From positions 2,304,001 to 2,368,000 of the forward strand of contig OY762911.1 in assembly GCA_963666565.1 (NCBI GenBank): a DNA stretch of 64,000 nt, written 5' to 3'. Shown piece after piece: positions 11,704-41,113 of this stretch. The notes below the pieces were generated by a model, which saw nothing but the letters and a program-made list of their open reading frames with translations, did no database searches and was not told the DNA's origin. A program made the position numbers and the translations under genes. Source of the stretch: Thermoanaerobaculia bacterium (GTDB taxonomy: Bacteria; Acidobacteriota; Thermoanaerobaculia; Multivoradales; Multivoraceae). The first letter of the stretch is position 1, and each line of letters starts with the position of its first letter.

Positions 11704-12288
11704 CTAGCTGGAGGTGTGGTCGGCGACGATCAGCCACCGTTCGCCGTGCCGCTCCACCGACAGCGTGAAGAGGCCGGTCGGTTCGTCCGATTCGCGGGTC
11801 AGCCGGAACCGGCCGAAGACCGTGGCGGCGTGCTCGGAGTGCACCCGCACCTCGAGTTCCTCGAAGGCCAGCGTCCCCATCGCGGCGCGGTCGGGGTAGG
11901 TCTCGCGGTAGCGCTTCAGGGTGTGGTCCCAGCCGCGACGCACCTCGCCGCCGGAGGTGAAGCGCAGTTCCCGGCTCCGCAGATAGCCGTCCATGAAGCC
12001 CTCGATGTCGCCCGCGTTCCAGTCCTCCACCTGCGCGTCCAGCACCTGGAGCACTTCCGCCGCGACGGTCTGCGGGTCGAACTCCGGCGGCGGCGGTTCC
12101 TCGAGGGCGGGCGGCTCGCAGGCCGCGAACAGCAGGCAGGCCGCGAGGCCGGCGAAGGCGGAGGCTGCTCCGACTGGGTGCGCGGGTCTTCCGACCGGCC
12201 CGCCGGCCGGCGCCGCGGAGCGGTGCGGGCCGGCGAGAGCGGCCGCCGGCGAACGTCGGCGACGGAGCTTCTTGCTGCTGGCGTTCAC
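11704..12288 (-). CDS. NTF2-like / DUF4440 (YybH-like) lipoprotein
   Basis: LDAQVEDWNAGDIEGFMDGY...GLFTL...WLIVADHTSS; lipobox FAAC; GTG 12288 overlaps the upstream TGA (GTGA). Start uncertain. Confidence 0.82.
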   Translation of the reverse strand: MNASSKKLRRRRSPAAALAGPHRSAAPAGGPVGRPAHPVGAASAFAGLAACLLFAACEPPALEEPPPPEFDPQTVAAEVLQVLDAQVEDWNAGDIEGFMDGYLRSRELRFTSGGEVRRGWDHTLKRYRETYPDRAAMGTLAFEELEVRVHSEHAATVFGRFRLTRESDEPTGLFTLSVERHGERWLIVADHTSS

Positions 12289-13112
12289 TTCGCGAGGCGC
12301 TCCACGTCGACGTCGCGGTGCTCGATCCGCGAGACGAGGGGCAGTTCCGCGGCGGCGTACGCCGGCGTGACGTCGTCGACGGTCAGGCCGCCGTCCCGGA
12401 TGTTCAGGCCGTAGTTGTCCGCGTCGTAGAACAGCAGGCCGCCGACGCGGCGGTAGTTCCGGAGAGTGCGGAACCGGAGTCCCGTACCGTCGCTGTAGTC
12501 GTAGGCGAACTGCTCGAGCCGGGCGGTCTCCGGATCGAACCAGTAGACGTAGGCGCTGTCGGCGCCGTCGCTCGAGCCGGACGCGAAGGTCACGCGGACC
12601 CGGTGCAACTGCCGCCCGTTCCACTCCTCCAGGCCCTGGTCTTCCTTGAAGGTTCCCGGATCGTTCAGCTTGTAGGGCAGGAAGAGGAAGTACATGCGCT
12701 GGTTGACGTAGCTCTCGGCCCGCGCCCGGGCCGCGTCGTCCATCTCCATCGGCGCGCCGGCTTCGGCGACCTGGAGGGCCGTGTTGTCGCGCCGGTACTC
12801 GCGCGCGTCGGCGCCGTCGGAGGCATGGATGACGTACTCGAAGCGGTCGCCGTCGATCGTCGAGTCCACGTCGAAGCTGCCGGAGCGGGAAGCGACCGTC
12901 AGCCGGACGCGCGAGCGCTCGAACAACTCGCCGCCGTGGTGCTCGATGGCGCGGTCGACGATCTCCAGGCGGTCCGACGTGCCCGGCGGGGCGCTCGGCG
13001 GCGGCTCGGGCGCCGGTTCCGCGCCGGCGCAGGCGAGGAAGAGAGCCGCGGCGGCGGCGCCGGGCCAAGCGCCCGCGGCGCCGGTTTCGTGGGAACTTTC
13101 GAATCGCAACAT
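12285..13112 (-). CDS. DUF6503-like putative lipoprotein
   Basis: FLAC lipobox; IVDRAIEHHGG...YFLFLPYKLNDPG...LEQFAY pattern resembles this family. Confidence 0.7.
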   Translation of the reverse strand: MLRFESSHETGAAGAWPGAAAAALFLACAGAEPAPEPPPSAPPGTSDRLEIVDRAIEHHGGELFERSRVRLTVASRSGSFDVDSTIDGDRFEYVIHASDGADAREYRRDNTALQVAEAGAPMEMDDAARARAESYVNQRMYFLFLPYKLNDPGTFKEDQGLEEWNGRQLHRVRVTFASGSSDGADSAYVYWFDPETARLEQFAYDYSDGTGLRFRTLRNYRRVGGLLFYDADNYGLNIRDGGLTVDDVTPAYAAAELPLVSRIEHRDVDVERLAK

Positions 13113-13142
13113 GGTTCCAGTCTAGCCGCCGGAAGCGCCCGC

Positions 13143-13290
13143 CGGGCGCGCGGGTCCTCCGACCCGGCACCGGGTGCGCGGGTCTTCCGACCCGCCGCTG
13201 GGTGCGCGGGTCTTCCGACCCGCATGCCGCCGAAGGCGGCCAAAGAACGCGCCGGCCGTCAGGCCGGCACCGCCCCGGCTGCTACGCTTC
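13143..13290 (+). repeat. Three tandem REP-like palindromes plus core half-element between divergent genes
   Basis: Copies at about 13143, 13171 and 13198, followed by gccgccgaaggcggccaaagaacgcgccggccgtcaggccggc. Confidence 0.9.
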
Positions 13291-13325
13291 GCCCTCACTC
13301 TGTACAGCCGCGGGAGGCCAACCGA

Positions 13326-14168
13326 ATGACCGAGTACGAACTCATCAAGTACGACGTGGACGATCCGATCGCCACGATCACCCTGAACCGGCCGGAGCAG
13401 TTGAACGCGATCACCGGCAGCATGCTGGCCGAGATGAAGCATGCGATGGCGGCCGCCGAGAGCGACGAGCGCGTGGTCGGCATCGTCCTGACCGGCGCCG
13501 GACGCGGCTTCTGCGCCGGTGCCGACATGCAGGGCCTCCAGGCCACCAGCCGCGGCCAGCGCGGCAGCGGCGGCGGAAACGCCATCGAGGATGCCCAGGC
13601 GGGCGCCATCGACGAGATGGGCGCCGACAACTTCGGCGTCACCTACAACTACCTGATGGCGGTGCGCAAGCCGATCGTGGCCGCGATCAACGGTCCCTGC
13701 GCGGGGCTCGGCTTCGCCATCGCGATGCTCTGCGACATCCGCTTCGCTTCGGACCGGGCGGTCTTCACGTCCGCGTTCGTGAACCGCGGCCTGATCGCCG
13801 AGCACGGGCTGAGCTGGATCCTGCCCCGCGTGGCGGGCCCGGCGAACGCGCTGGACATCCTGTGGACGGGCCGCAAGTTCTACGGGCCGGAGGCGGCCCG
13901 GATGGGCGTCGTGAACCGCTCCGTGCCGCACGACCGGGTCGTGCCCGAGGCCGAGAACTACGTCAAGGCGCTCGCCGAGCGCTCCGCGCCGATGTCGCTC
14001 AAGGTCATCAAGCAGCAGGTCTACCGCCACCTGATGATGGACACCGGCGACGCGCTCCGCGAGTCGAACGAGTTGATGGCCGAGAGCCTGAAGCGCGACG
14101 ACTTCAAGGAAGGCGTCGCCTCCTTCGTCGAGCGCCGCGCGCCGAAGTTCCAGCGCATCACGAGCTAG
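13326..14168 (+). CDS. Enoyl-CoA hydratase/isomerase (crotonase) family protein
   Basis: ITLNRPEQLNA, GRGFCAGAD, KPIVAAINGPCAGLG motifs; GGGAGG upstream of ATG 13326. Confidence 0.93.
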   Translation: MTEYELIKYDVDDPIATITLNRPEQLNAITGSMLAEMKHAMAAAESDERVVGIVLTGAGRGFCAGADMQGLQATSRGQRGSGGGNAIEDAQAGAIDEMGADNFGVTYNYLMAVRKPIVAAINGPCAGLGFAIAMLCDIRFASDRAVFTSAFVNRGLIAEHGLSWILPRVAGPANALDILWTGRKFYGPEAARMGVVNRSVPHDRVVPEAENYVKALAERSAPMSLKVIKQQVYRHLMMDTGDALRESNELMAESLKRDDFKEGVASFVERRAPKFQRITS

Positions 14169-14201
14169 CTGCGTCGCGGCGCGGCGGCGGTGCCGGCACT
14201 C

Positions 14202-14382
14202 GCCCGCGGCGAGCCGCGGGGAGGGGGCGCGCCCAAGGGACGCTCGCCCTCTCGGAGTGGATGGGGAGCAGGGGCTCGCTGTTGTCGACTGCGCTTCGCT
14301 TCGGCGTCGGTTGGCGAGGCGGCGCGGGGAGTCGCTTGTCTTCGACCCCCTGGGCGCCCCCTCCCCGCGCCTCGCCGCGGGC
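14202..14382. repeat. MITE-like segment with ~37-bp imperfect terminal inverted repeats
   Basis: gcccgcggcgagccgcggggagggggcgcgcccaaggg (about 14202-14239) matches the reverse complement of about 14346-14382. Confidence 0.6.
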
Positions 14383-14427
14383 TGGACGCTCTCGGCTCGA
14401 CATTACGCTGCGCCGAGCGTCGGTGCA

Positions 14428-14485
14428 CTGGGTGCGCGGGTCTTCTGACCCGCATCAGGCGCGATGCCGCGGAGCGGCGAGCCCG
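14428..14485 (+). repeat. REP-like palindrome with a 3' tail shared with the copy at 27056
   Basis: ctgggtgcgcgggtcttctgacccgc followed by atcaggcgcgatgccgcggagcggcgagcccg. Confidence 0.85.
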
Positions 14486-14782
14486 TGTCGCTACGTGGAC
14501 AACGCTCGAGCCGCTTTGTACACCTCCGCGTCAGATGGCTGTGGATCGCCCCGCAGCACCCGCGCCGCGGCTTCCAACGCCCAGTCCAGAACCGCGTCCG
14601 CGGTGGTGGTGTTCCCTTCGGGAGGAACGCCCAGAACGGCTATCGGTTCGTGCGGCGTCGTTTCGATCCTCGCCGATTCGGCCGGCCAGCCTTCCATGAC
14701 CGCCAGAAGCCGCCGGGCCTGAGTCAGCCAAGCGTCTGCTACCGCTTCGGCGGTGCAGTCGCCGGCGCCGCGGATCCTCCGC

Positions 14783-15898
14783 CTAGTCGACGCGATCCCG
14801 CCTTTCCTTGAGCTCGCGGAAGGTCGTCAGCACCAGGCCCTCGTCCTCGATCGCCTGTTGCACGCGGGGGTCGAGCATCGCCAGCATGTCGCCCTTGCGG
14901 CTGGGGCCGGACGTCGAGATGTACTTGAAGTTCGGGCTCGGGTCGGTCGAGTGCAGGATGATCATCGTGACGCCGGGGCGCAGGTCGCGCAGGGCCTGGA
15001 CGTAGCGTTCGACCTTGTACTCCGTCAGTTCCTCGTCGGTGGCGTCGGCGCCGCTCTCGGGGACCCAGCCGTAGCTCAGGTTGTGGAGGTCGTCGAGGAC
15101 GGGCAGGCCGCCGTCCCAGATGCGCTGGCCGAGTTCGGTCGCGCGGCCGAGTCCCGGCGGCGTGTCCCGTCCCTGGGCCTCGTACTGGGCTTCGAGGATC
15201 GCGTTGTGGCCGCCGGGGAACATGAGCGGGATGCCCTCGTCGATGCCGACCTGGATGTAGCGCTCGAGGAAGTCCATCGTGGCGAACAGGGTGCCCATGT
15301 GGGAGTCGAGGTGAGTCGGTTCGAAGCCCATCGCCCGGGCGCGGTGGATCTGCTCGCGGATCTCCGCTTCCACTTCGTCCGGGGAGGCGTGGGCGACGAC
15401 CTCGGCCACGCTCGACCACAAGGCGCCCTCGGCGTCGACCAGGCCGGGCGCCGCTTCGCGGCCGACCAGCGGTCCCCAGCGGTAGCCGTCCCACTCGGCG
15501 GTCAGGGTCAGGTGGAGGCCGGCGTCGATGCCCGGATTCTCCTTCAGGCTCGCCACGAGTTCGGGCACCCAGGGGCAGGGCATCATGACGCTCATCGAGT
15601 TCGCGGCGCCCTCCAGGATGGATCGGAGGGCGCCGACGTTCGAGTCGCGCGACATGCCGGCATCGTCGACGTGCAGGATGACGGCGCGGGCGCCGGCGGG
15701 GAAGCCGAGCTTCTCGGCGTACGTCTGCGCTTCGGCCTGGCAGGCCGTGAGGAAGGCGGCGGTCAGGCAGAGGATCGCCGCGGCGGCGATGCGAATGCGG
15801 TGCGGCGGCGGGGCCGGGTGGCGGCCGCTGCCATCCGTGCGGGTCAAAAGACCCGCGCACCCAGCGGCAGGCGAGTTCCATGCAGGCGTTTCGGACAT
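14783..15898 (-). CDS. YdjC/ChbG-like carbohydrate deacetylase family protein, exported
   Basis: ILHVDDAGM, GLHLTLTAEW, PTHLDSHMG motifs; GAGGAGG upstream of ATG 15898. Confidence 0.87.
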   Translation of the reverse strand: MSETPAWNSPAAGCAGLLTRTDGSGRHPAPPPHRIRIAAAAILCLTAAFLTACQAEAQTYAEKLGFPAGARAVILHVDDAGMSRDSNVGALRSILEGAANSMSVMMPCPWVPELVASLKENPGIDAGLHLTLTAEWDGYRWGPLVGREAAPGLVDAEGALWSSVAEVVAHASPDEVEAEIREQIHRARAMGFEPTHLDSHMGTLFATMDFLERYIQVGIDEGIPLMFPGGHNAILEAQYEAQGRDTPPGLGRATELGQRIWDGGLPVLDDLHNLSYGWVPESGADATDEELTEYKVERYVQALRDLRPGVTMIILHSTDPSPNFKYISTSGPSRKGDMLAMLDPRVQQAIEDEGLVLTTFRELKERRDRVD

Positions 15899-15909
15899 CG
15901 TGTTCCTCC

Positions 15910-17556: not shown

Positions 17557-17636
17557 GTACGGCGCCTTTCCCTGAAGTGGTCCACGGCGAATGAGACTAT
17601 CCTCTCGGTGGCCGGAGGCCGGCTGGAGAATTGCCG

Positions 17637-18632
17637 ATGCGAGTTTTCGACGCTGCCCGGACCGCGGAACTGCTGCCCTGGGGCGCCGTGGTCGACGCGC
17701 TGGAGGCGGGCTTCCGCGACGGCTGCGAGATGCCGGTGCGCCATCACCACACGATGCAGGCGCCGGCCGGCGACGGTTCGCGGCTGCGCCCGGATGCGGG
17801 TCGGAAGACCCGCGCACCCGGCGGTGCCGAGGCGACCCTGCTCCTGATGCCGGCCTGGACCGTCGGCGGCTACCTGGGGGTCAAGGTGGCGTCCGTGTTC
17901 CCGGGCAACGCGTCCCGCGGGCTGGGCGCCGTGCAGGCCAGCTACATCCTCGCGTCGGCGGAGACCGGCGAGCCGCTGGCCCTGATCGACGGCCTGGAGC
18001 TGACGCTCCGGCGTACCGCGGCGGCGTCGGCGCTGGCGGCGCGGTTCCTGGCGCGCGCGGATTCCCGCCGCCTGCTGGTCGTCGGCACGGGCAACCTGGC
18101 GCCCCACCTGGCCGGGGCGCATGCCGCGGTCCATCCCGACCTGGAGGTCGAGTTCTGGGGGCGCCGGCCCGAGCGCGCCCTCGCGGCGTCCCGGTCGCCG
18201 CTGCTCGAAGGGCTAGCCGCGGGGACGGCGGGCGACCTGGAGCCGGCGGTCCGCGGCGCCGACATCGTCAGCACCGCGACCCTGGCCACCGAACCCCTGG
18301 TGTTCGGCGACTGGCTCCCGGCCGGCGTGCATGTCGACCTGGTCGGCGGCTTCACGCCGGCGATGCGCGAAGCGGACGACGAGGCGATGCGCCGTTCCAC
18401 CGTCTTCGTCGATACCCGGGACGGCGCACTGGTCGAGGCCGGCGACCTGACCCGGCCGATCGAGTCCGGCGCGCTCCGGGCCGAAGACGTCGCCGCCGAC
18501 CTGTACGAACTGTGCCGCGGCCGGCACGGCGGCCGCCGGGACGCCTCCGAGATCACCCTGTTCAAGTCCGTCGGCGCCGCGCTCGAGGACCTGTTCGCCG
18601 CCATCCTGCTGTGGGAGCGGAGCGGTGGCTAG
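17637..18632 (+). CDS. Ornithine cyclodeaminase / mu-crystallin family protein
   Basis: LLLMPAW, FPGN, LTLRRTAAASALA, GTGNLA and LFKSVG motifs; GGAG upstream of ATG 17637. Confidence 0.92.
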   Translation: MRVFDAARTAELLPWGAVVDALEAGFRDGCEMPVRHHHTMQAPAGDGSRLRPDAGRKTRAPGGAEATLLLMPAWTVGGYLGVKVASVFPGNASRGLGAVQASYILASAETGEPLALIDGLELTLRRTAAASALAARFLARADSRRLLVVGTGNLAPHLAGAHAAVHPDLEVEFWGRRPERALAASRSPLLEGLAAGTAGDLEPAVRGADIVSTATLATEPLVFGDWLPAGVHVDLVGGFTPAMREADDEAMRRSTVFVDTRDGALVEAGDLTRPIESGALRAEDVAADLYELCRGRHGGRRDASEITLFKSVGAALEDLFAAILLWERSGG

Positions 18633-18749
18633 CGCCGCCGAACCCGTCGCAGGCTCCGTGTTTGGCCCCGGCCCCCACCTCGTCAGGAGCTTGCGCCGCG
18701 GACCCGACCTCCGTTGCGGCGCCGCGGCGCAAGGTCCTAGACTCTCCCC

Positions 18750-21291: not shown

Positions 21292-21429
21292 CTGGGTGCG
21301 CGGGTCTTCCGACCCGCTGCCGCCGGAGGCGGCGTCGAGAATCGTCGCCGGCCTTTGGCCGGCGTCCGTACTCTCCGGGCTGCGCCGCTTCGCGGCTTCG
21401 CCGAGCGGGTCGGAAGACCCGCGCACCCC
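21292..21429. repeat. Complete REPIN-like composite element (inverted REP pair plus conserved core)
   Basis: Forward copy 21292-21317, reverse copy 21405-21429; core closely matches 33945-34035. Confidence 0.92.
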
Positions 21430-22658: not shown

Positions 22659-23249
22659 TCACTGCGATCGATGCGCTTGGAGCAGAGACTCTCCTTGCGG
22701 GCCAGGGAGTGCTCTGGGTGCGCGGACCTTCTGGTCCGCTTCCGGGAGAAACGCGTCGTGGAGCGGCGACCGCTTGGATCGGCGCCGAGTCAGCAGTTCG
22801 GCCGCGGTCGCGCGCAGGACCGGGTGCCAGGCGTTCGGCGCGATCTCGACCAGCGGCTCGAGGACGAAGCGGCGCCGGTGCATCCGCGGATGCGGGACGA
22901 TGAGGCCGGGCTCGTCCACGACGCGGTCGCCGAACAGCAACAGGTCGAGATCGATCGTCCGCGGGCCGGCGGCGCCGGCGGTCCGGTCGCGGCCCAGGGC
23001 GGCTTCGATCTCGAGCAGGGCCGCCAGCAGGCCGCGGGCGTCGAGGTCGGTCTCCAGCGTCGCCGCCGCGTTCCGGAAGTCCGGATCCGCGGCCGCGACG
23101 CCGCGCTCGGGGACCGCCCGGGTGCGGTAGAAGCGCGACACCGCGGTCACGTCCGCGACATCGCGCAGACGATCGAGGGCCGCGTGCAGATTGGCGCGCT
23201 TGGGCCGCAGGTTGGACCCCAGGGCGACGAAGGCGCGGGTGGACGTCAC
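22659..23249 (-). CDS. folK: 2-amino-4-hydroxy-6-hydroxymethyldihydropteridine diphosphokinase
   Basis: AFVALGSNL, GPRTIDLDLL, PHPRMHRRRFVLEPL motifs; GTG 23249 overlaps the folP-folB stop (GTGA). Confidence 0.92.
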   Translation of the reverse strand: MTSTRAFVALGSNLRPKRANLHAALDRLRDVADVTAVSRFYRTRAVPERGVAAADPDFRNAAATLETDLDARGLLAALLEIEAALGRDRTAGAAGPRTIDLDLLLFGDRVVDEPGLIVPHPRMHRRRFVLEPLVEIAPNAWHPVLRATAAELLTRRRSKRSPLHDAFLPEADQKVRAPRALPGPQGESLLQAHRSQ

Positions 23250-27036: not shown

Positions 27037-28868
27037 CGTCAAGCGGCCTCACACCGGGTGCGCCGGCGACCTCGCCGGCATCAGGCGCGATGCCGCGAAG
27101 CGGCGAGCCCGAGTCCCGCCGTCCGCGGCGAGCACCTTGTTCCGTAGCCGCCCTTCTTCTTGCCGTGTTCGCCTCGATGGCGGCAGCCACCTCGCCGCCC
27201 CTCGAGCCGACCCGCTTCACCCTCGACAACGGGATGACCTTCCTCGTCGTCGAACGCCCCGGCCGCCCCCTGGTGGCCGCCGTCTGGGCTGCGCGAGGCG
27301 GCTCGGCGTCTGACCCGCCGGGACGCCGCGGCCTCGCCCACGTCGTCGAGCATCTCCTCTACGCCGGCAGTCGGACGATCGGCGCCCGCGACTGGGACGA
27401 GGAGGCGCCGCTGCTCCGGCGCTGGGAGCGCCTGTACGAGCGGTCCGTGCGGCAGGGCGCCGCCGAGCCCGGCCTGGACGGGGTGGAGCAGCGGCTCGCG
27501 GCCCTTCAGCGGCCCGGCGCCTATGCCGGCGTCTACACGCGCGCCGGCGCGCTCGGCATCGACGCCTTCACCCGCCACGACTCGACCGCGTTCCAGGTCC
27601 TGACGCCGAAGGAGAAGATCGAACTCTGGTTCTGGATGGAATCCGACCGCCTGCTCGAACCGGTCTTCCGGGGCTTCCGGCGCGAGCTCGCGGTGGTCGA
27701 GCAGGAGCGCCGCCAGCGCATCGACTCGACGCCGGCCGGGACCTGGTTCGACCTCTTCGACGCCGCCTACTGGGGCGCCGGGCACCCCTACGCCCACTCG
27801 CCGGGCGGCGAGCGGCTCGAAGTCGCGCGCCTGCTGCCGGCGGACGCGCGTTCCCACTTCGAGGCCACCTACCGCCCCGACCGCCTGGTCGCGGTTCTCG
27901 TGGGCGACCTGACCGCGCCGCGCATACGAGAGCTGGCCGAACGCTACTTCGGAAGGCTCGAAGGCGGCCGCCAAAGTCAGCCGGATGCACGGGACTCCCG
28001 ACCCGCCGCCGCCGAAGGCGCTCGGGATCCGCTGGGTGCGCGGGTCTTCCGACCCGCCGCCGCCGAAGGCGCTCGGGAACCGCTGGGTGCGCGGGTCTTC
28101 CGACCCGCCGCCGCCGAAGGCGCTCGGGATCCGCTGGGTGCGCGGGTCTTCCGACCCGCCGCCGCCGAAGGCGCTCGGGATCCGCTGGGTGCGCGGGTCT
28201 TCCGACCCGCCGCCGCCGAAGGCGGCCAGGAACGTCCGGGCCCGCGGCAACGACCCGCTCCCGAAGCGAACGAAGCGCCAGCGACGCCCGGTCCCCCCGA
28301 GCCGGCGCTCGGATCCCTGGAAGGCCTCTGCGCCTGCCGCGGCCAGGTCGAGATCCGCTATCCCACCGTGCCGTTCGCGGCCGCCGGCGACGCGGTCGCG
28401 CTCGACGTCCTCGCCGGCCTGCTCAACGGCCGCTCGGGGCGCCTCTACCGCGAGCTCGTGGCGGGCGAGGGCCGGGTCGCCTTCGCGGCGTCGGCGGAGC
28501 ACGTGTCGCGGCGGCTCGGCGGCTACTTCGCGGTGCGGATCGAGGCAGGCGAGGGCGCGGTTCCATCGGAACTGGCACCCGCTTGGGACCGGCTGCTCGA
28601 GAGAGTGCGCGCCGGCGGCGTCGACGACGCGGAGCTCGAGCGGGTAAAGCGGCAACTCGCGACCGACTCCTGGCGTCAACTCGAACAGGACGTCGGCTTG
28701 GCGCACCGCCTCGCGGCGGCCGAGGCGCTCGGCGGCTGGCGCCAGTTGACGGAGTGGCTCGACGCCGCGGCGGCGGTCTCGGCCGCCGACCTGGAGCGGG
28801 CGATCGATCGCTACCTCCTCGGCGCCGAGCGGGCGGTTCTCTCCCTGACCCGGACCGGGGGACCCTGA
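27033..28868 (+). CDS. M16 family zinc peptidase (insulinase), catalytic subunit
   Basis: LDNGMTFLVVE, GLAHVVEHLLY (HxxEH), MESDRL; ATG 27033 overlaps the CRTAC1 stop (ATGA). Confidence 0.88.
   Translation: MTSSGLTPGAPATSPASGAMPRSGEPESRRPRRAPCSVAALLLAVFASMAAATSPPLEPTRFTLDNGMTFLVVERPGRPLVAAVWAARGGSASDPPGRRGLAHVVEHLLYAGSRTIGARDWDEEAPLLRRWERLYERSVRQGAAEPGLDGVEQRLAALQRPGAYAGVYTRAGALGIDAFTRHDSTAFQVLTPKEKIELWFWMESDRLLEPVFRGFRRELAVVEQERRQRIDSTPAGTWFDLFDAAYWGAGHPYAHSPGGERLEVARLLPADARSHFEATYRPDRLVAVLVGDLTAPRIRELAERYFGRLEGGRQSQPDARDSRPAAAEGARDPLGARVFRPAAAEGAREPLGARVFRPAAAEGARDPLGARVFRPAAAEGARDPLGARVFRPAAAEGGQERPGPRQRPAPEANEAPATPGPPEPALGSLEGLCACRGQVEIRYPTVPFAAAGDAVALDVLAGLLNGRSGRLYRELVAGEGRVAFAASAEHVSRRLGGYFAVRIEAGEGAVPSELAPAWDRLLERVRAGGVDDAELERVKRQLATDSWRQLEQDVGLAHRLAAAEALGGWRQLTEWLDAAAAVSAADLERAIDRYLLGAERAVLSLTRTGGP
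27983..28230 (+). repeat. Four 51-bp tandem units (plus one degenerate), each carrying the REP-like palindrome, in-frame in the M16 gene
   Basis: Units start at 28002, 28053, 28104 and 28155 and encode PAAAEGAR(D/E)PLGARVFR. Confidence 0.95.
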
Positions 28869-33891: not shown

Positions 33892-34072
33892 CTGGGTGCG
33901 CGGGTCTTCCGACCCGCTGGGTCCGCGGGTCTTCCGACCCGCTCGCCGCCGAAGGCGGCGGACAGCATCGTCGCCGGCCTTTGGCCGGCGGCCTTGTTGT
34001 CCGGGCTGCGCCGCTTCGCGGCTTCGCCCGGCGAGCGGGTCGGAAGACCCGCGCACCGACCCGCGCACCCAG
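33892..34072. repeat. REPIN-like composite element with duplicated ends
   Basis: Forward copies at 33892 and 33917, reverse copy at 34035, partial copy at 34058. Confidence 0.92.
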
Positions 34073-34095: not shown

Positions 34096-36618
34096 ATGAG
34101 CGAATCCCGACTTCCCGTAGCGGATGACCGCGGTGCCGGGTCCGGTCCGGACCGGCGGCGGTTCCGGCGCTTGGCGTTCCGCCTGGCGCTTCCCTGTCTC
34201 GTCTTTCTTGCCGCGAGCGCCCAGGGTCAACGGTTCTTGACCGTCGCACCGCTGGGCGACGATCCGACCTCGGACGGTTGGTCGGTCGACGTCGATCACG
34301 ACCTCGTGCGTTCCGCGCCGCGGCGTATCGAGTTCGAGGCGCCGGACGGCCGCGTCCTGACCCCCGAGATGCGCGTCTTCGAAGACCGCGGCGACGGCAA
34401 CGCGATGTGGGTCGGCGGCTATCCCGAACTCGGCTACGACAACGTCGTGCTGACGCTGCAGGACGGCCACCTGCTGGGGCGCTTCGGGCTGCCGGAAGGC
34501 GGCACGTACTGGATTCGCTCGCCCGGCCAGGGTTCCGGCCGCCTGACCGAGGGCGGCGAGACGTCGGCGCGGGCCTGCGGCGGCGGAGTCGTACCGGACC
34601 GCGACCCGGTGGAGCGGGTGGCCGCGGCGGCGAGCGCGGACACGCCCCGGCGCGCGAAGAACGCGTCGAACCACGACCGCCTCGACATCCTGGTGCTCTA
34701 CACGGCAGCCGCGCGGCAGCGGCTGGAGCAGGCGGGCTGGGGGGCGCCCGCGGCGTTCACGCAGCACGCAATGGACTACCTGAACCTGGTGTTCCGCAAC
34801 AACCAGGTCACCGTGACGGGGAATCTGGTGCACCAGGAGGAGGCGCCGGCCGTATTGGGTCAGTTCAACAACCCGCTGGACGCGCTCACGGGCAGTCAAG
34901 AGGTGCACGATCTGCGGGTGGAGCACGAGGCCGATCTCGTCCACCTGTTCTTCAACGCCGAGGCCGGTCTCTGCGGCCAAGCATGGCTGATGACGCGTGG
35001 GAGCACGGCGGCGAACTTCTGGCGCAGCGGCTACGGCATTACGTCCGTGGCCGGCGGCTGCGTCAGCGCCGAGCGGCTGGTGCGGCCCGGAGAACACGCG
35101 AACCATGTCGAGACGTTCGCCCACGAGATCGGCCACAACCTGGGGGGGAATCACAACCCGGAGGACACGGGTCTCGAGCCCGACCGGGCGATTTACCCCT
35201 ACGCCTTCGGCCACCACAACTTCGAGCCGCAGCCCAACCGGAAGAGCGTGATGAGCTACAACGAGGGCCGGCAGATGCCGTTCTTCTCGACCGTGCGGGT
35301 GAAGCCGGATGGCTACACCCTCGGCGTCGCGAACGAGCGGGAGAACGAGCGCGCCGTGCAGCAGACCATTCACATCGCGGTCCGGCTCAGCGACCAGCTT
35401 CCCGAACCGGGGGAACCCCCGCCGCCGCCGCCGCCGCCAGGCGATCTGCCGTCGGCGCCCACCGACGTTTCCGTTCTGGCCACCGGCAGCACCAGCGTCA
35501 AGGTGACCTGGACCGACACGTCGGACGACGAGCACGGCTTCCACGTCCTCGCCCGGCCCGCGGGCGCCGGCTGGCGGACGGTGGCCGAGGCGCCCGCGAA
35601 CGCGGAGTCGGCCGACGTCGACGGCCTCAGGGCCGGCGCCCGCTACGACTTCCGCGTCCGGGCCTGGAACCGCAGCGGCGGCCGCAATAGCGGCGTGACG
35701 ACGATCGTCCTGAGCGGGGCCGAGTACACCGACTGCGTGCCGTCCGCGGCCCAGATCGCGTTCGAGCACGGCTTCACCGTCAGCATGTGCGTCGAGTACG
35801 AGAAGGACGGCGAGACGGTGAAGACGGACGCGAAGGACTACGGCCTCGAGTCCCGGGAATCGGGGTTGCTGTACTTCTTCGATCGCGACAATGCGGAGGT
35901 GCTGGTCAAGGTGCTCGACGCCTGCGCGGTGAACCAGTACCGCTGGGTGTTCGTCGCGCCGGTCACGGACCTAGCCTTCAACCTTCGCGTCAACGAGACG
36001 GAAACCGGGAAGTCGTGGACCCACCGTAACCCCAGGGGCGGCCAGACCGCGTTGACGAAGAGCGACGTGCGGGCCTTCCCGTGCGACGGCGGGGCGGGAT
36101 CGACCGCCGCCGGCGAGCCTGGCGGCGAAGGCGTGACCGGCGTGGACCTCGTCGCGGCGGGTCTTCCCGCCGCCCCGGCGCCGGCGCCGGCCGCGACGCC
36201 GCCTGCAGCGCTGCTTTCCGCGGCGTCCGTGATCCAGCCCATCGGCGCCGGCGAGGCGACGGACTGCGCGCCGATGCCGGCGATGACGCTGGCCGGCGGC
36301 TACACCGTCAACATGTGCGTCGAGTACCTCAAGGACGGCAACCCCGAGGTCAAGGAGGCGCTGGACTACGGTCTGGATTCCCGGCAGTCGGGGCTCCTGT
36401 ACTTCTTCGATCGCAACAACGCGGAAGTGCTGATCAAGGTGCTCGACGGCTGCGACGTGAACCGGCACCGCTGGGTGTTCGTGGCGCCGGTGACGGACCT
36501 CGCGTTCAACCTGTCGGTCGTGTCGCCGGACGGCCAGGCGGTGTGGACGCACGACAACGCGCTGGGCCAGACCGCGTCGGCCAAGAGCGACGTCGCGGCC
36601 TTCCCCTGCGCCAACTGA
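34096..36618 (+). CDS. Second M12B/reprolysin-like metalloprotease paralog with one Fn3 domain and two C-terminal unnamed domains
   Basis: HEIGHNLGGNHN, SVMSY; prodomain shared with the upstream gene (VFEDRGDGNxMW, SNHDRxDIL.LYT). Confidence 0.88.
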   Translation: MSESRLPVADDRGAGSGPDRRRFRRLAFRLALPCLVFLAASAQGQRFLTVAPLGDDPTSDGWSVDVDHDLVRSAPRRIEFEAPDGRVLTPEMRVFEDRGDGNAMWVGGYPELGYDNVVLTLQDGHLLGRFGLPEGGTYWIRSPGQGSGRLTEGGETSARACGGGVVPDRDPVERVAAAASADTPRRAKNASNHDRLDILVLYTAAARQRLEQAGWGAPAAFTQHAMDYLNLVFRNNQVTVTGNLVHQEEAPAVLGQFNNPLDALTGSQEVHDLRVEHEADLVHLFFNAEAGLCGQAWLMTRGSTAANFWRSGYGITSVAGGCVSAERLVRPGEHANHVETFAHEIGHNLGGNHNPEDTGLEPDRAIYPYAFGHHNFEPQPNRKSVMSYNEGRQMPFFSTVRVKPDGYTLGVANERENERAVQQTIHIAVRLSDQLPEPGEPPPPPPPPGDLPSAPTDVSVLATGSTSVKVTWTDTSDDEHGFHVLARPAGAGWRTVAEAPANAESADVDGLRAGARYDFRVRAWNRSGGRNSGVTTIVLSGAEYTDCVPSAAQIAFEHGFTVSMCVEYEKDGETVKTDAKDYGLESRESGLLYFFDRDNAEVLVKVLDACAVNQYRWVFVAPVTDLAFNLRVNETETGKSWTHRNPRGGQTALTKSDVRAFPCDGGAGSTAAGEPGGEGVTGVDLVAAGLPAAPAPAPAATPPAALLSAASVIQPIGAGEATDCAPMPAMTLAGGYTVNMCVEYLKDGNPEVKEALDYGLDSRQSGLLYFFDRNNAEVLIKVLDGCDVNRHRWVFVAPVTDLAFNLSVVSPDGQAVWTHDNALGQTASAKSDVAAFPCAN

Positions 36619-36721
36619 CCGGCGAGCGGGACCGCTCCCCCTTCGCGTCGTCGCTGCTCCCGGAGTGCCAGCCGGAACGGCGGCGCTCCCGGAGAACCGG
36701 GCTTCCCGCTCTCGCAGGCGG

Positions 36722-38182: not shown

Positions 38183-38204
38183 CGTCTCGGTCGCCGTCGA
38201 TAGT

Positions 38205-38705
38205 ATGCGCGCCGTGCCGGAAGCAGTGCCCAGGGCCAGAGCGTGGCTCCTCGTCCTGCTGCTCGGCGTCGGCGCGGTTGCCGCGCAGGGTCCGCCGCGG
38301 GTCGTTCTCTCCGGCATCGAGGTGGCGCCGGCCGCGCCCGGCGCCGAGACGCTCTGCAAGTTGACCGCGACGATCGAGAACTCGGGCGACCGGGCCGTCT
38401 ACGGCTTCGGCTTCGACGTCGAGCTGAACGGCGAACCGTTGCCCGTTTACGAGAAGCAACTCTTCCTCCAGGTGATCGAGGCCGGCGAGACGGAGGAGGT
38501 CGCTCTCTTCAACTTCTGGACCTCGGAAACCGGCCGGCCGGCGCCGGCGGACGGCAAGCTCGAGGTGCTGGTCCGTCTGCGAGAGGCGCGCTGGGTCGAG
38601 GTCTCCGAGGTCGAAGAAGACGGCGAGACCGTCGAGGTGTGGACGCCGCTGGGAGACGTCGCCGGTCTGCCGCAGGCGGTCAGCCTGGCGCTCGAACTGA
38701 AGTGA
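38205..38705 (+). CDS. Secreted hypothetical beta-sandwich protein
   Basis: Signal peptide (WLLVLLLGVGAVAA), beta-strand-like pattern; divergent from DUF3179. Confidence 0.75.
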   Translation: MRAVPEAVPRARAWLLVLLLGVGAVAAQGPPRVVLSGIEVAPAAPGAETLCKLTATIENSGDRAVYGFGFDVELNGEPLPVYEKQLFLQVIEAGETEEVALFNFWTSETGRPAPADGKLEVLVRLREARWVEVSEVEEDGETVEVWTPLGDVAGLPQAVSLALELK

Positions 38706-38710
38706 CCGCA

Positions 38711-41113
38711 ATGCGCGTCCGTTGGGTGCGCGGGTCTTCCGACCCGCTCACGGGCGAAGCCGCGGAGCGGCGCAGCCCGGACAACAGGGCCGCCGGCCGG
38801 GGGCCGGCGACCGCGGCAGACGAGACGCCAGCCAAAGCGGCGCCGGCCTTGCGGCCGGCTCGTACTCCTGGCCGCCTTCGGCGGCAGCGGGTCGGAAGAC
38901 CCGCGCACCCAGCCGGCGGCCGGTTGGGTGCAGGGTCGTTCGCGTTCGCCGCGGCCTTCGTCGTGGCGGCGTGCTCTCCCGCGCCGCCGGAGTCCCGCCC
39001 CGGCGCCGGCGTCGGCACCGCCGCGCCGCGGCCGCCGATCGTCCTGATCTCCATCGACACCCTGCGCTCGGACCGGCTGCCCGCCTACGGCTACGACGCG
39101 GTCGAGACGCCTGCCATCGACCGCCTTGCCGCCGACGGCGTCCTGTTCGAGCGCGCCTACACCCACGTCAACGTCACCCTGCCCTCGCACGCGAGCCTGT
39201 TCACCGGCCTGCTGCCGCCGGACCACGGCGTGCGCGACAACGCCGGCTACCGCCTGGACGAGGCGGTCCCGACCCTGGCGGCGGAACTCGGGCAAGCCGG
39301 CTACGCGACGGGCGGCTTCGTGTCCTCCTACGTCCTGCGCGCCGGGACCGGAATCGCCAGCGGCTTCGACGTCTACGACGACGAGGTCGGGTTCGAGACC
39401 GGCCGCCAGTTGGGCCAGCTTCAGCGCGCGGGCGCCGAGACGCTCACCGCGGCCTCCGAGTGGCTCGGCGGCGTGGCGGGAACGCCCTTCTTCCTGTTCC
39501 TTCACCTCTACGAGCCGCACGCCCCCTACGAGCCGCCGCCGCCGTTCGCCGAGCGCTACCCGGAGAACCCGTACGACGGCGAGGTCGCAGCGGCGGACGC
39601 GGTCGTCGGCGCGCTGATCACGCGCCTGGAGGAACTCGGCGTCTACGACGAAGCTCTCGTTGTCCTGCTCTCGGACCACGGCGAGGGACTGATGGACCAC
39701 GGCGAGATGGACCACCTGATCCTCATCTACCGGGAAGTGCTCCAGGTGCCCCTGATCGTGAAGCTGCCGGACGGTTCGCGTGCCGGCGAGCGGATCGCGG
39801 CGAACGCGCAGCTCGCCGACGTGGCGCCCGCGGTCTACTCGCTGCTCGGCCTGGAAGCGCCGCCTGGACTCGCCGGCGAGGATCTGCTCGCCCTCGGCGC
39901 GGCCCCGCCGGACGCTGCGCCGCGCCGGATCGTCTCGGAGAGCGTCTATCCGCGGATCCACTTCGGCTGGAGCGACCTCGGCTCGGTCGTCGAGGGCGAG
40001 CTGCACTTCATCGAATCGCCCGAGCCGGAGCTGTTCCGCCTGTCCGAGGATCCGGCCGAGCGGAACAACGTGATCCAGCAGGAGCGGGCGGCCGCGCGGC
40101 GCCTGCGCGCGGCGCTTGCGGAGATCGACCGTTCCCTGGCGGCGCCGGCCGAGGACGATCCGGAGGTCCGCCGCCGGCTCGAGTCGCTCGGCTACCTGTC
40201 CGGCGGCGCGAGTGGCGGCGACGGGCCGCTTGCCGACCCCAAGGGCCGCATCTCCGTCGTCGCGGATCTGGGCCGCGCCATGCGGTTGGCGGACGCTGGC
40301 GAACTGGCGGAGGCTGAGTCGGCGTTGCGGGCGGTAGTAACCGCCGAGCCACAACTCGTGCTCGCGTGGCAGTCGCTCGGCGACGTGCTGGAACGCCGGA
40401 AGCGGCCCGGGCCGGCGCTCGAGGCCTACCGCGAGGCGTTCGAGCTCTCGGCCGGCGGCGCCTCCGCAGCGGGGCTCAAGGTCGCCGAACTGCTGCTCCA
40501 GGAGGGCCGCGTCGCCGAGGCCCGCGAACACGCCCTGGCGGTGATTGACCGGTCGCCCATGGCGAACGACGTGCTGGCGCAGGCGGCGATGCTGGAAGGA
40601 GACCTGGACGCGGCCGGAGCACACCTGGAGCGGGCGGTCGCGGAGCGCGGCTTCCGCGTGAGACCTCTGATCACGAAGGCGGCTTGGCTGAACAGACAGG
40701 ATCGCTTCGAGGAAACCCTGGCGCTGAGCGACGGATTGCTGGCCGAGTTCGGCGACCGGCGCGACCGGGAGATCCTCGGGCACCTGTATCTCTACCGCGG
40801 CGCGGCGCTGGCGGCCCTGGGGCGCGAGGGCGAGTCCGAGAGCGCGTACCGGGAGGCGATCGCGCTGGGGCCCGATCTCCTCGGGGCCTGGTCCGGCCTG
40901 GCCTTCCTCCAGGCGCTCATGGGACGCGGCGCCGAGGTCGGCCGCACGCTGCAGGAAATGGTCGCCGTGAACCCGAGCCCGGCGGCGTACGCCGAAGCGG
41001 TGCGGGCGTTGCGGGCGATGAACGATCCGCGCTCCGCGGACGGCGTGCTCGGCGAGGCGCTGCGCCGGTGGCCGGAAGCCGAGGAGTTGCGGCTGCTCAC
41101 GGCCTCGCGCTGA
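38711..41113 (+). CDS. Alkaline-phosphatase-superfamily ('sulfatase-like') lipoprotein with C-terminal TPR repeats
   Basis: VAAC lipobox; IVLISIDTLRSD, TLPSHASLFTG, HLYEPHAPY, SDHGE, LESLGYL, then TPRs. ATG 38711 lies 5 nt after the previous stop. Confidence 0.87.
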   Translation: MRVRWVRGSSDPLTGEAAERRSPDNRAAGRGPATAADETPAKAAPALRPARTPGRLRRQRVGRPAHPAGGRLGAGSFAFAAAFVVAACSPAPPESRPGAGVGTAAPRPPIVLISIDTLRSDRLPAYGYDAVETPAIDRLAADGVLFERAYTHVNVTLPSHASLFTGLLPPDHGVRDNAGYRLDEAVPTLAAELGQAGYATGGFVSSYVLRAGTGIASGFDVYDDEVGFETGRQLGQLQRAGAETLTAASEWLGGVAGTPFFLFLHLYEPHAPYEPPPPFAERYPENPYDGEVAAADAVVGALITRLEELGVYDEALVVLLSDHGEGLMDHGEMDHLILIYREVLQVPLIVKLPDGSRAGERIAANAQLADVAPAVYSLLGLEAPPGLAGEDLLALGAAPPDAAPRRIVSESVYPRIHFGWSDLGSVVEGELHFIESPEPELFRLSEDPAERNNVIQQERAAARRLRAALAEIDRSLAAPAEDDPEVRRRLESLGYLSGGASGGDGPLADPKGRISVVADLGRAMRLADAGELAEAESALRAVVTAEPQLVLAWQSLGDVLERRKRPGPALEAYREAFELSAGGASAAGLKVAELLLQEGRVAEAREHALAVIDRSPMANDVLAQAAMLEGDLDAAGAHLERAVAERGFRVRPLITKAAWLNRQDRFEETLALSDGLLAEFGDRRDREILGHLYLYRGAALAALGREGESESAYREAIALGPDLLGAWSGLAFLQALMGRGAEVGRTLQEMVAVNPSPAAYAEAVRALRAMNDPRSADGVLGEALRRWPEAEELRLLTASR
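38723..38912. repeat. Complete REPIN-like element lying in-frame in the 5' end of the sulfatase-TPR ORF
   Basis: Forward copy 38723-38747, reverse copy 38887-38912; core is in the opposite orientation to the 21292 and 33892 elements. Confidence 0.9.

What the first reader, a model, noticed from the sequence alone, without database searches (positions are those of the whole stretch)
11704..41113. The palindrome inserts in-frame into proteins, in different frames, often ahead of signal peptides
Seen: the consensus has no stop in any of six frames (LGARVFRP, WVRGSSDP, GCAGLPTR, GSEDPRT, VGRPAHP, AGRKTRAP). Copies lie inside apparently intact CDSs: DUF4440 N-terminus (12174), YdjC N-terminus (15839), cyclodeaminase (17796), folK C-terminal tail (22714), M16 N-terminus (27056) and linker (28002), and sulfatase-TPR N-terminus (38723-38912, a whole ~190-bp element). 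Four of these precede the hydrophobic core of a signal peptide. Known: Rickettsia palindromic elements are a precedent for in-frame palindrome insertion. Inference: an independent protein-invading repeat tolerated in cleaved leaders and loops.
Basis: partly seen in the sequence, partly recalled or inferred. Interest (0 to 1): 0.85.

Follow-up and report, generated by a model that had tools for sequence, protein, structure and literature searches.

The report
REP hairpin repeats inserted in-frame into genes
A small hairpin-forming mobile DNA repeat that normally sits between genes has multiplied in this sponge-associated bacterium and has also landed inside dozens of apparently intact genes without breaking their reading frame, which is a known but uncommon way for selfish DNA to add pieces to proteins.

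Summary
The core GGGTGCGCGGGTCTTCCGACC occurs 31 times in the window (0.01 expected) and 902 times in the 4.79-Mb genome. Comparison with same-genus genomes shows that all seven reported sites are insertions that keep the host frame: OCD loop (51 nt), M16 loop (51-nt tandem units), folK tail, and four N-terminal sites between a conserved start codon and the signal-peptide hydrophobic core.

The element is a REP/REPIN-type repeat. It has an 8-nt tag plus hairpin and 138- or 187-nt inverted doublets. One RAYT-like transposase gene is present, and its own 3' end runs into REP copies.

About 88% of copies lie outside coding segments. About 54 ORFs carry copies, including HisD, PurH and a GlmM-like mutase, all checked against congeners.

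Translation is inferred, not shown. YdjC and the SnoaL-like lipoprotein have no canonical start downstream of the repeat. The sulfatase and the M16 N-terminus do.

Intragenic REPs and Rickettsia RPEs are in print, so this is a new member of a known kind.

The parts
12174..12281 (-). About 102-nt half-REPIN insert (boundaries within about 6 nt) in codons 3-36 of a SnoaL/NTF2-like lipoprotein gene. The CDS is 11704-12288 on the minus strand; GTG 12288 overlaps the upstream stop as GTGA. Core at 12176-12196; read as ..GGPVGRPAHPVG.
   Evidence: Six congeners aligned at DNA level lack the 102 nt, and 14 of 16 at protein level lack the insert. G012 shares it. No canonical start lies between the repeat and the lipobox.
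15816..15881 (-). About 66-nt insert after codon 6 of the YdjC-family lipoprotein gene. The CDS is 14783-15898 on the minus strand; ATG 15898 is preceded by GAGGAGG. Core at 15842-15862; read as AAGCAGLLTRT.
   Evidence: The ATG aligns with the M of all 13 congeners. The closest N-termini (L033, L038) lack the 66 nt.
17774..17824 (+). 51-nt single-REP insert (17 aa, GSRLRPDAGRKTRAPGG) in the ornithine cyclodeaminase/mu-crystallin gene (CDS 17637-18632 +). It lies just before the conserved LLLMPAW strand. Core at 17799-17819 (minus orientation).
22659..22793 (-). Repeat-derived C-terminal tail (about 44 aa) of folK/HPPK. The Pfam domain ends at residue 138 of 196. A degenerate core of the GGACC stem variant lies at 22709-22745.
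   Evidence: Congeners end at ..AELLAEL plus 0-4 residues, or carry repeat-coded tails such as ..AAAGQKTRAPS.
27045..27143 (+). About 99-nt variant-REP insert (CGGCG stem) between the conserved start ATG 27033 (ATGA overlap with the upstream stop) and the signal-peptide core of an M16 peptidase (CDS 27033-28868 +). It carries its own ATG at 27090.
27977..28247 (+). Tandem array of 51-nt units (17 aa, PLGARVFRPAAAEGARD) inside the Peptidase_M16_C region of the same M16 gene. Cores at 27983, 28034, 28085, 28136 and 28187.
   Evidence: The 13 congeners have a 10-25-aa variable loop there.
38720..38914 (+). Whole 187-class REPIN (about 195 nt, 65 aa) after codon 6 of the sulfatase-TPR lipoprotein gene. 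The CDS is 38702-41113 +; GTG 38702 overlaps the upstream stop as GTGA. Cores at 38724-38744 (+) and 38890-38910 (-). An alternative in-frame TTG lies at 38924.
   Evidence: The RNA fold gives -159 kcal/mol, z -8.8.
13144..13220 (+). Intergenic tandem array of three cores, 28-nt period (context: the usual extragenic location).
21294..21428 (.). Intergenic 138-class REPIN between convergent genes.
33894..34058 (.). Intergenic REPIN with one extra core, between two reprolysin-like genes.
43040..43193 (.). Intergenic cluster of six cores, including four at a 25-nt period, between convergent genes.

Best explanation
The repeat is a REP/REPIN-type selfish element. It consists of a conserved 8-nt tag (GGGTGCGC) followed by a 7-bp GC hairpin. 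It occurs as singles, as direct tandem arrays, and as inverted doublets of about 138 or 187 nt that fold into one long hairpin. It was probably spread by the genome's single RAYT-like HUH tyrosine transposase acting on single-stranded hairpin DNA.

It has expanded in this genome to about 840 copies, against 0-172 in congeners. Most copies sit just downstream of genes.

The element is very GC-rich, so it has few stop codons. An insertion whose length is a multiple of three can therefore survive inside a gene at a permissive place: a surface loop, an inter-domain linker, a C-terminal tail, or the stretch between the start codon and the hydrophobic core of a signal peptide. There the repeat is read as part of the protein, and only the frame is under selection, not the peptide sequence.

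Shown here: the family and its architecture, the insertions relative to orthologs, frame conservation, and the depletion in coding sequence.
Inferred: mobilisation by the RAYT, translation of the inserts, and removal of N-terminal inserts with the signal peptide.
For: Family and architecture:
- 31 copies in the window against 0.01 expected; 902 in the genome.
- 119 convergent against 8 divergent core pairs. Lengths cluster at 135-141 nt (75 pairs) and 184-189 nt (14 pairs). The consensus folds give -138 and -183 kcal/mol.
- The tag is followed by hairpins with three different stem sequences.

Transposase:
- One Y1_Tnp hit in the genome, with an HUH motif. NCBIfam REP_Tyr_transpos scores 76.8 bits. 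Its C-terminus runs into four REP copies.

Distribution:
- 792 of 902 copies lie outside coding segments that cover 86% of the genome.
- 377 clusters lie within 60 nt after a stop, against 116 within 60 nt before a coding start. Convergent spacers hold 143 of 474 clusters, against 506 of 3381 spacers overall.
- Found in 18 of 21 congeners, with 839 copies in G000 and 0-172 in the others. Found in 0 of 13 genomes of other genera of the order.

In-frame insertions verified against orthologs:
- Seven sites in the window.
- HisD: about 77 aa, absent in 5 of 5 congeners.
- PurH: 12 aa, absent in G013.
- GlmM-like: repeat-derived loop in all 5 genomes compared, left or right half of the element.

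Frame constraint:
- The modal array period is a multiple of 3 in 10 of 13 arrays inside coding segments, against 45 of 98 outside (Fisher p 0.042).
- The M16 N-terminal inserts have lengths of 55-63 aa, all in frame.
- Variable sites by codon position are 13/16/16 of 33 in the insert, against 10/5/26 of 40 in the mature part.

N-terminal pattern genome-wide:
- 57 of 116 clusters near the 5' end precede a hydrophobic window, against 24% of all 3382 genes.
- 21 have no canonical start downstream of the repeat.
- An upstream start with an open frame is commoner in the gene's frame (53) than in the other two frames (32, 35).
- Two further loci were checked with congeners.

Assembly: DNA contigs from three samples bridge the YdjC and SnoaL-like inserts without a difference.
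Against: - No protein or ribosome data. The RNA run laid holds only a relative and does not bridge any insert.
- The sulfatase (TTG 38924) and the M16 N-terminus (ATG 27090) have in-frame starts downstream of or inside the element.
- Full REPINs inside hisD and the sulfatase 5' end would form perfect stems of more than 30 bp in the mRNA, which could hinder translation or invite cleavage.
- The RAYT hit is just under NCBIfam's cut-off (76.8 against 80 bits), and only its 3' side carries clear REPs.
- The tag is neither GTAG nor CGTC, the two tags of the published REP super-families (passages of PMC3733652).
- No target-site duplication or target motif could be resolved.
- Genome-wide counts rest on my own crude codon-score gene caller and a hydropathy heuristic. 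Three of 13 'internal' arrays have periods of 25-26 nt and may be false gene calls.
- The array test is only p 0.042, and intact ORFs are in frame by construction.
Confidence: 0.8

Rival explanations
1. The N-terminal copies lie in 5' untranslated leaders. Translation starts downstream of the repeat, and the long upstream ORFs are the stop-poor artefact of a 70% GC genome.
For: High-GC ORFs run far upstream of real starts throughout the window. The sulfatase has an in-frame TTG at 38924 and the M16 an ATG at 27090. In two congeners of the G000:1222043 lipoprotein an ATG lies between the repeat and the hydrophobic core. Di Nocera et al. concluded the same for most 5' REPs of Pseudomonas putida, Citrobacter koseri and Stenotrophomonas maltophilia (passages of PMC3733652).
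Against: YdjC and the SnoaL-like gene have no ATG, GTG or TTG between the repeat and the lipobox cysteine. The starts conserved in 13 and 14 congeners lie upstream, one with a GAGGAGG site and one with a GTGA stop/start overlap. Insert lengths differ among genomes yet always keep the upstream start in frame. The gene's frame has more upstream starts with an open path than the other two frames, 53 against 32 and 35.
Confidence: 0.2
2. The insertion-bearing genes are recently inactivated pseudogenes of a symbiont in genome decay. The open frames merely reflect the lack of stop codons in GC-rich DNA.
For: Most insertions checked are private to G000 and could be too young to show decay. Long perfect hairpins inside hisD and the sulfatase 5' end might block expression.
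Against: The hosts include single-copy housekeeping genes (hisD, purH, a glmM-like mutase) with full-length conservation at 82-92% identity. The shared M16 and GlmM-like insertions persist across species in frame, and the M16 mature region shows 10/5/26 variable sites by codon position. Coding segments still cover 86% of the genome. The 34 clusters tightly flanked by same-strand genes sit between full-size genes, not between gene halves.
Confidence: 0.06
3. Some in-gene copies have been recruited for a function. Candidates are RNA hairpins that tune translation or mRNA decay at the 5' end of secreted-protein genes, flexible linkers, or variable exposed peptides.
For: Hydrophobic-core genes are over-represented after 5' clusters, 49% against 24%. 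The same sites are hit repeatedly or kept across species: YdjC in G003, the amidohydrolase-like gene, the GlmM-like loop and three M16 loops. The nucleotide sequence GCGATGCCGCGAAGCGGCGAGCCCGA is conserved at all codon positions in the M16 N-terminal insert.
Against: There is no codon-position bias in the insert, so no peptide-level selection is visible. Recurrence can equally reflect tolerant sites or target preference. Copies are depleted about sevenfold in coding segments.
Confidence: 0.1
4. The in-gene copies are assembly errors in a repeat-rich genome.
For: Short-read contigs break inside the OCD copy at 17796.
Against: Contigs from three samples are identical to the window across the YdjC and SnoaL-like inserts. 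Orthologous inserts occur in independent assemblies.
Confidence: 0.02

Closest known systems
REP/REPIN sequences with RAYT (REP-associated tyrosine transposase), as in Escherichia coli and Pseudomonas
   Same: A short GC-rich hairpin with a conserved flanking tag. Hundreds of copies. Inverted doublets that form one long hairpin. Enrichment just downstream of genes and between convergent genes. One transposase-like gene per genome, flanked by the repeat. General features are taken from passages of PMC3733652 and from abstracts listed.
   Different: The tag is GGGTGCGC, not GTAG or CGTC. Many direct tandem arrays have periods of 24-60 nt. About 12% of cores lie in ORFs. The RAYT's own C-terminus is repeat-coded. 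The NCBIfam score is just below the cut-off.
Rickettsia palindromic elements (RPE)
   Same: A palindromic repeat inserted in frame into many unrelated genes, housekeeping ones included, with the host ORF kept. Insertions are read in several frames. N-terminal cases exist (passages of PMC10969869, and of PMC3733652).
   Different: RPEs occur in AT-rich obligate intracellular alphaproteobacteria, and the passages read name no transposase for them. Here the genome is 70% GC and belongs to a sponge-associated acidobacterial lineage, a RAYT-like gene is present, arrays inside genes have periods that are multiples of three, and most copies are extragenic. No sequence comparison with RPEs was made.
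Intragenic GTAG/CGTC REPs of Opitutus terrae and other species (Di Nocera et al. 2013)
   Same: REPs lying entirely inside ORFs, often as dimers or groups coding 20-80 aa, some at the N- or C-terminus, some supplying stop codons (passages).
   Different: Different tag and lineage. Here each window case was tested against congeners. The supplement listing their host genes was not seen.
Enterobacterial RU/ERIC elements inside genes (Delihas 2007)
   Same: A small mobile repeat with open frames fused to genes. [quoted passage not shown]
   Different: There the repeat supplies the signal peptide itself, in single examples. Here the repeat lies ahead of a pre-existing hydrophobic core, and the pattern recurs in dozens of genes.
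   Same: Tandem units within operons whose small frames overlap the stop and start of flanking genes. This resembles the 34 clusters squeezed between same-strand genes.
   Different: MIRUs are not hairpin REPs and have no RAYT. The resemblance is a lead only.

Membership tests
REP/REPIN-RAYT system | Short (20-40 nt) imperfect palindrome in high copy number | tested here: met
   A 7-bp stem with a 4-nt loop plus an 8-nt tag. 902 copies at up to 3 mismatches.
REP/REPIN-RAYT system | Mostly extragenic, close to 3' ends of genes | tested here: met
   792 of 902 copies lie outside coding segments. 377 clusters lie within 60 nt after a stop, against 116 before a start. The gene caller is my own.
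REP/REPIN-RAYT system | Inverted doublets of fixed size that fold into one hairpin (REPIN) | tested here: met
   119 convergent against 8 divergent pairs. Modes at 137-139 and 186-187 nt. Consensus MFE -138 and -183 kcal/mol.
REP/REPIN-RAYT system | A cognate RAYT gene flanked by the repeat | tested here: inconclusive
   One PF01797 hit (36.3 bits, over the cut-off). NF047646 scores 76.8 bits against a cut-off of 80. Four direct cores and one inverted core lie at its 3' end. Only degenerate tag repeats lie at its 5' end.
REP/REPIN-RAYT system | GTAG or CGTC tetranucleotide tag at one end (the two published super-families) | tested here: not met
   The conserved flank is (CT)GGGTGCGC. The criterion comes from passages of PMC3733652.
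REP/REPIN-RAYT system | Cleavage and joining of the single-stranded repeat by the RAYT | not testable with these tools
   Needs biochemistry.
Rickettsia palindromic elements | In-frame insertion into intact, conserved genes | tested here: met
Rickettsia palindromic elements | Sequence membership in an RPE family | not tested
   No RPE sequence was fetched. The GC content and host lineage make membership implausible.
MITE (IS-derived) | Terminal inverted repeats | tested here: met
   The cores form the ends of the 138- and 187-nt elements.
MITE (IS-derived) | Target-site duplication | tested here: inconclusive
   None could be read at the OCD, YdjC, sulfatase or HisD sites. The flanks are too divergent or too GC-monotonous.
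MITE (IS-derived) | A parent insertion sequence with the same ends | not tested
   Only PF01797 was searched in the genome.

The most novel reading that the evidence does not exclude
An ongoing REPIN burst in an uncultured sponge-associated acidobacterium is systematically remodelling its exported proteome. Repeats settle between the start codon and the hydrophobic core of lipoprotein and secretory leaders, and in loops of housekeeping enzymes. There the repeat-coded extensions or their RNA hairpins are used to tune export or translation, or to diversify host-facing proteins. On this reading the n-region of signal peptides would be a preferred landing pad for selfish DNA, not merely a tolerant one.
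Probability: 0.1. Interest if true: 0.75.

Novelty: new member of a known kind. Interest (0 to 1): 0.5.

Why it matters
This is a well-controlled natural example of selfish DNA adding sequence to proteins. About 20 close relatives provide empty sites for the same genes, so insertion sites, tolerated positions and later in-frame decay can be read directly.

It extends in-frame palindrome insertion, best known from Rickettsia, to a GC-rich free-standing REP/RAYT system in another phylum. It suggests that signal-peptide n-regions, inter-domain linkers and C-terminal tails are the main tolerant places.

In practice it warns annotators of such genomes in three ways. Start codons upstream of a repeat can be the real ones. 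Repeat-coded peptide repeats are not assembly noise. Adjacent genes can be bridged by stop-free arrays.

Tried and rejected
The alignment A1 built for it was not used for anything else. The PDB sequence search only shows that homology to solved OCD-family chains begins at residue 65, right after the insert. I therefore do not claim a surface loop as shown.

RNA evidence: the one metatranscriptome found (X23) holds contigs 85-95% like the window, that is a relative, and none bridges an insert. This says nothing about expression. No listed contig bridges the OCD insert; contigs begin at 17796.

Target-site duplications were sought at four filled/empty site pairs and not resolved.

The idea that KKLRRRR was the native n-region of the SnoaL-like protein was dropped after the congener alignment showed it is part of the insert.

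One of three extra N-terminal loci (G000:760758) had only 60%-identical matches, probably paralogs, and was not counted. In the first HisD alignment four rows were wrong ORFs picked by too short a motif; it was redone.

Split genes caused by out-of-frame insertions were looked for only crudely, so their absence is not shown.

Literature searches for repeats in Candidatus Multivorans found nothing (3 papers listed, none on repeats). Searches found the precedents cited. Supplementary tables of PMC3733652, which list intragenic REP hosts, were not seen and may hold closer parallels.

Shuffles keep mononucleotide content only.

Full report
WHAT IS THERE

The window is 70-77% GC. It lies in a single-contig genome of 4,786,144 bases. 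The motif behind the finding is GGGTGCGCGGGTCTTCCGACC, whose centre is the hairpin GCGGGTC-TTCC-GACCCGC. It has 31 matches at up to 3 mismatches in the window, against 0.01 expected from 100 shuffles. In the genome it has 417 exact matches and 902 at up to 3 mismatches.

The repeat finder shows three forms:
- single copies;
- direct tandem arrays, with periods of 25, 28 and 51 nt in the window;
- larger units with one core at each end in inverted orientation.

Genome-wide there are 119 convergent core pairs and only 8 divergent ones. Their lengths peak sharply at 137-139 nt (75 pairs within 135-141) and at 186-187 nt (14 pairs within 184-189). The consensus of each class is a nearly perfect long palindrome, with predicted folds of -138 and -183 kcal/mol.

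The eight bases GGGTGCGC act as a constant tag. They are followed by perfect hairpins with three different stems: GGGTC in about 680 copies, CGGCG in about 61 and GGACC in 11.

WHAT KIND OF ELEMENT

A search of the genome with Pfam Y1_Tnp gives one hit, at G000:749427-749648. The ORF (749118-749858) has:
- an N-terminal WHWRGYHPHLD...FRLADSVP stretch;
- an HUH motif (PNHIHAL);
- a YYDRF motif;
- the NPVGAGL...WPWSS end.

Its last residues are four copies of WVRGSSDPH, coded by a 27-nt array of the repeat. An inverted core follows 100 nt on. Degenerate tag repeats lie upstream. NCBIfam names it REP-associated tyrosine transposase at E 1.6e-21 and 76.8 bits, just under the cut-off of 80.

Tag plus hairpin, inverted doublets of fixed size, hundreds of copies, and one flanked RAYT-like gene together are the anatomy of a REP/REPIN system. 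The tag differs from the GTAG and CGTC tags of the two published super-families (passages of PMC3733652).

The family is confined to the genus among genomes searched. It was found in 18 of 21 congeners and in 0 of 13 genomes of other genera of the order. G000 has 839 copies at up to 2 mismatches, against 0-172 in the others. Other single-contig congeners have 0-92. Record titles of the nearest public loci name Candidatus Multivorans, Thermoanaerobaculia, Acidobacteriota, many from sponge metagenomes.

WHERE THE COPIES LIE

No gene finder is provided, so I trained a codon log-odds score on long high-GC3 ORFs. For every ORF I called the best-scoring stretch ending at its stop. This gives 3382 segments covering 86% of the genome.
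- 792 of 902 cores lie outside these segments, 95 lie inside and 15 lie on an edge.
- Of 545 clusters, 377 lie within 60 nt after a stop and 116 lie within 60 nt before a coding start.
- Convergent spacers hold 143 of 474 non-coding clusters, although they are only 506 of 3381 spacers.

The element behaves like an ordinary REP in the main, and copies in coding sequence are strongly depleted.

THE SEVEN REPORTED SITES

Each host protein was searched in about 20 same-genus genomes, and the loci were aligned.

Ornithine cyclodeaminase family (Pfam):
- G000 has 331 aa. All 18 genus matches are 312-314 aa, and all 38 genus-like public loci are 933-942 nt.
- The alignment shows 17 extra residues (GSRLRPDAGRKTRAPGG), a 51-nt insert at 17774-17824, between APAGD and EATLLLMPAW. 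It is absent from 11 of 11 aligned congeners.

M16 peptidase:
- About 90 aa made of 51-nt units (PLGARVFRPAAAEGARD) replace a variable loop of 10-25 aa in 13 of 13 congeners.
- At its N-terminus, the start codon overlaps the upstream stop (ATGA or GTGA) and follows GAGGAAC in 12 of 12 genomes where it could be located.
- Genomes without an insert have 22-28 aa from the start to the motif LEP. Six with the insert have 55, 55, 56, 57, 62 and 63 aa, all in frame.

YdjC:
- ATG 15898 follows GAGGAGG and the upstream stop. It aligns with the M of all 13 congeners, most of which read MRKVLR plus a lipoprotein core.
- G000 has about 66 extra nt after codon 6 relative to its nearest N-termini.

- GTG 12288 overlaps the upstream stop as GTGA, as in the congeners.
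- A 102-nt insert follows codon 2. It is shared in diverged form, still in frame, with G012 only.

Sulfatase-TPR:
- GTG 38702 overlaps the upstream stop in all six genomes aligned at DNA level.
- A whole 187-class element (about 195 nt) follows codon 6 in G000 and is absent from 15 of 15 congeners.

folK:
- The conserved protein ends at ..AELLAEL plus 0-4 residues.
- In several congeners the element sits at the 3' end. In some the stop lies in a hairpin loop; in others the frame reads through and gives tails such as ..AAAGQKTRAPS.
- G000 has a repeat-derived tail of about 44 aa.

All four N-terminal inserts precede a hydrophobic core. Three of these cores end in a lipobox cysteine.

ARE THE N-TERMINAL COPIES INSIDE THE CODING SEQUENCE?

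- In YdjC the next in-frame ATG, GTG or TTG after the repeat is at 15655, inside the YdjC domain. One TTG lies inside the core itself.
- In the SnoaL-like gene the next one is at 12054, beyond the lipobox.

If these proteins keep their leaders, translation must begin upstream of, or within, the repeat. The sulfatase has TTG 38924, and the M16 insert carries ATG 27090, so those two cases remain open.

Genome-wide figures:
- 21 of 116 clusters near the 5' end have no canonical start between the repeat and 15 codons into the coding segment. 16 of these 21 precede a hydrophobic window.
- As a control for stop-poor DNA, an upstream start with an open path occurs in 53 of 116 cases in the gene's frame, against 32 and 35 in the other two frames. 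For genes with a hydrophobic window the figures are 33 against 20 and 14 of 57.
- Hydrophobic windows follow 49% of these clusters, against 24% of all genes.

Two further loci checked with five congeners show the same picture:
- An amidohydrolase-like gene has repeat-like inserts of different size between M and the core in 4 of 5 genomes and none in G004.
- A lipoprotein has the repeat ahead of its lipobox core in all six genomes. In two of them an ATG lies after the repeat.

A third locus had only paralog-level matches and was dropped.

INTERNAL INSERTIONS BEYOND THE WINDOW

54 called ORFs hold cores. In 31 of them the cores lie at least 90 nt from either end. All 31 have a Pfam domain at E up to 1e-5.

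The copies lie mostly in three kinds of place:
- between domains: phosphoglucomutase domains I/II, ADH_N/ADH_zinc_N, GATase/Asn_synthase, HemC/HemD;
- in loops that split a domain match: three M16_C domains, NTP_transferase, PQQ_2, AICARFT;
- in tails.

Three hosts were checked against five congeners:
- HisD has a whole element of about 77 aa, absent from 5 of 5.
- PurH has 12 extra residues absent from G013. The other four congeners have unrelated or degenerate 10-15-aa stretches at the same place.
- The GlmM-like mutase carries the left half of the element (WVRGSSDPLPPKA) in three genomes and the right half (AAAGRKTRAP) in two. This looks like an old insertion trimmed in frame.

All six frames of the core are used. 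The three hydrophilic readings are the commonest.

FRAME, NOT SEQUENCE, IS KEPT

- Spacings between successive cores are multiples of three in 27 of 32 cases inside coding segments and in 71 of 172 outside.
- Taken array by array the figures are 10 of 13 against 45 of 98, Fisher p 0.042. The three exceptions have periods of 25-26 nt and may be false gene calls.
- Among six M16 orthologs that share the N-terminal insert, variable sites are spread evenly over codon positions (13, 16, 16 of 33). In the adjoining mature part they are 10, 5 and 26 of 40. All indels are multiples of three, and the hairpin stem shows a compensatory G-C to C-G change.

The host protein is therefore under purifying selection after the insertion, while the insert evolves like DNA that only has to stay in frame.

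Whole elements have more open frames than chance. 27% of 75 are open in all six frames, against 3.9% of shuffles and 2.4% of repeat-free non-coding windows. The consensus nevertheless has a stop from the central loop in 2 of 6 frames.

OTHER CHECKS

- DNA contigs from three samples of one study are identical to the window across the YdjC and SnoaL-like inserts.
- Whole elements in the sulfatase 5' end and in hisD would fold at -159 and -165 kcal/mol, z about -8.5. This is a real difficulty for smooth translation and the main reason for caution.
- No target-site duplication was resolved.

COMPARISON WITH WHAT IS KNOWN

- In-frame palindromic inserts are the hallmark of Rickettsia RPEs (passages of PMC10969869).
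- REPs inside genes have been catalogued in several species, most in Opitutus terrae and R. conorii. That study cautions that many N-terminal ones may be extragenic (passages of PMC3733652).
- I found no paper on repeats of this genus.

The present case is therefore a new member of a known kind. Its particular features are a new tag, a RAYT-like gene whose own end is repeat-coded, arrays inside genes with periods that are multiples of three (up to 8 x 12 aa), and a recurrent position ahead of signal-peptide cores, each testable against many close relatives.

VERDICT

- Translation of the inserts is inferred. I rate it about 0.8 for the internal sites, about 0.65 for YdjC and the SnoaL-like protein, and about even for the sulfatase and the M16 N-terminus.

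Noticed in passing
window 1-6063 (minus strand): A giant ORF that runs off the window start (at least 1928 aa). It has seven near-identical 570-nt tandem repeats and 17 He_PIG Ig-like domains plus Big_9. It is a large repetitive surface-type protein.
   Followed up: partly
G000:C1:749118-749858: The genome's only Y1_Tnp/RAYT-like gene ends in four repeat-coded WVRGSSDPH units. The surrounding 742-758 kb is unusually dense in arrays, several of them inside ORFs.
   Followed up: partly
G000:C1:752819-755230 and G000:C1:1730602-1732632: Stop-free repeat arrays bridge two domain sets into one ORF: GFO_IDH_MocA with Aldo_ket_red, and HemC with HemD. These may be gene fusions made or kept by the repeat. 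They were not compared with congeners.
   Followed up: no
L028 (G003), YdjC ortholog: A different insert of about 36 aa (..RPGACAGERSNDSPTAQGPGEDGMGRKSEPARR..) sits at the same place between the start and the lipoprotein core.
   Followed up: no
window 26387-26581: A 15-nt tandem repeat (about 13 units) near the 3' end of the FG-GAP repeat protein gene 25072-27036. It is unrelated to the REP family.
   Followed up: no
window 50000-54000: GC falls to 0.64-0.67, against 0.70-0.77 elsewhere. The stretch holds the end of a CarboxypepD_reg-domain gene and small ORFs, and may be foreign DNA.
   Followed up: no
window 31118-33871 and 34252-36618: Two adjacent paralogous reprolysin-like (M12B) metallopeptidase genes with fn3 domains, separated by a REPIN.
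   Followed up: no
G000:C1:342091-344835 and window 27033-28868: Three different M16 peptidases carry repeat inserts at the equivalent loop after the ..FG.L motif of the M16_C region. This is either a very tolerant site or a preferred target.
   Followed up: partly
window 43207-47573 (minus strand) and 41338-43029 (+): Three large ORFs with strong coding score (703, 714 and 564 aa) have no Pfam family at E 1e-5.
   Followed up: no
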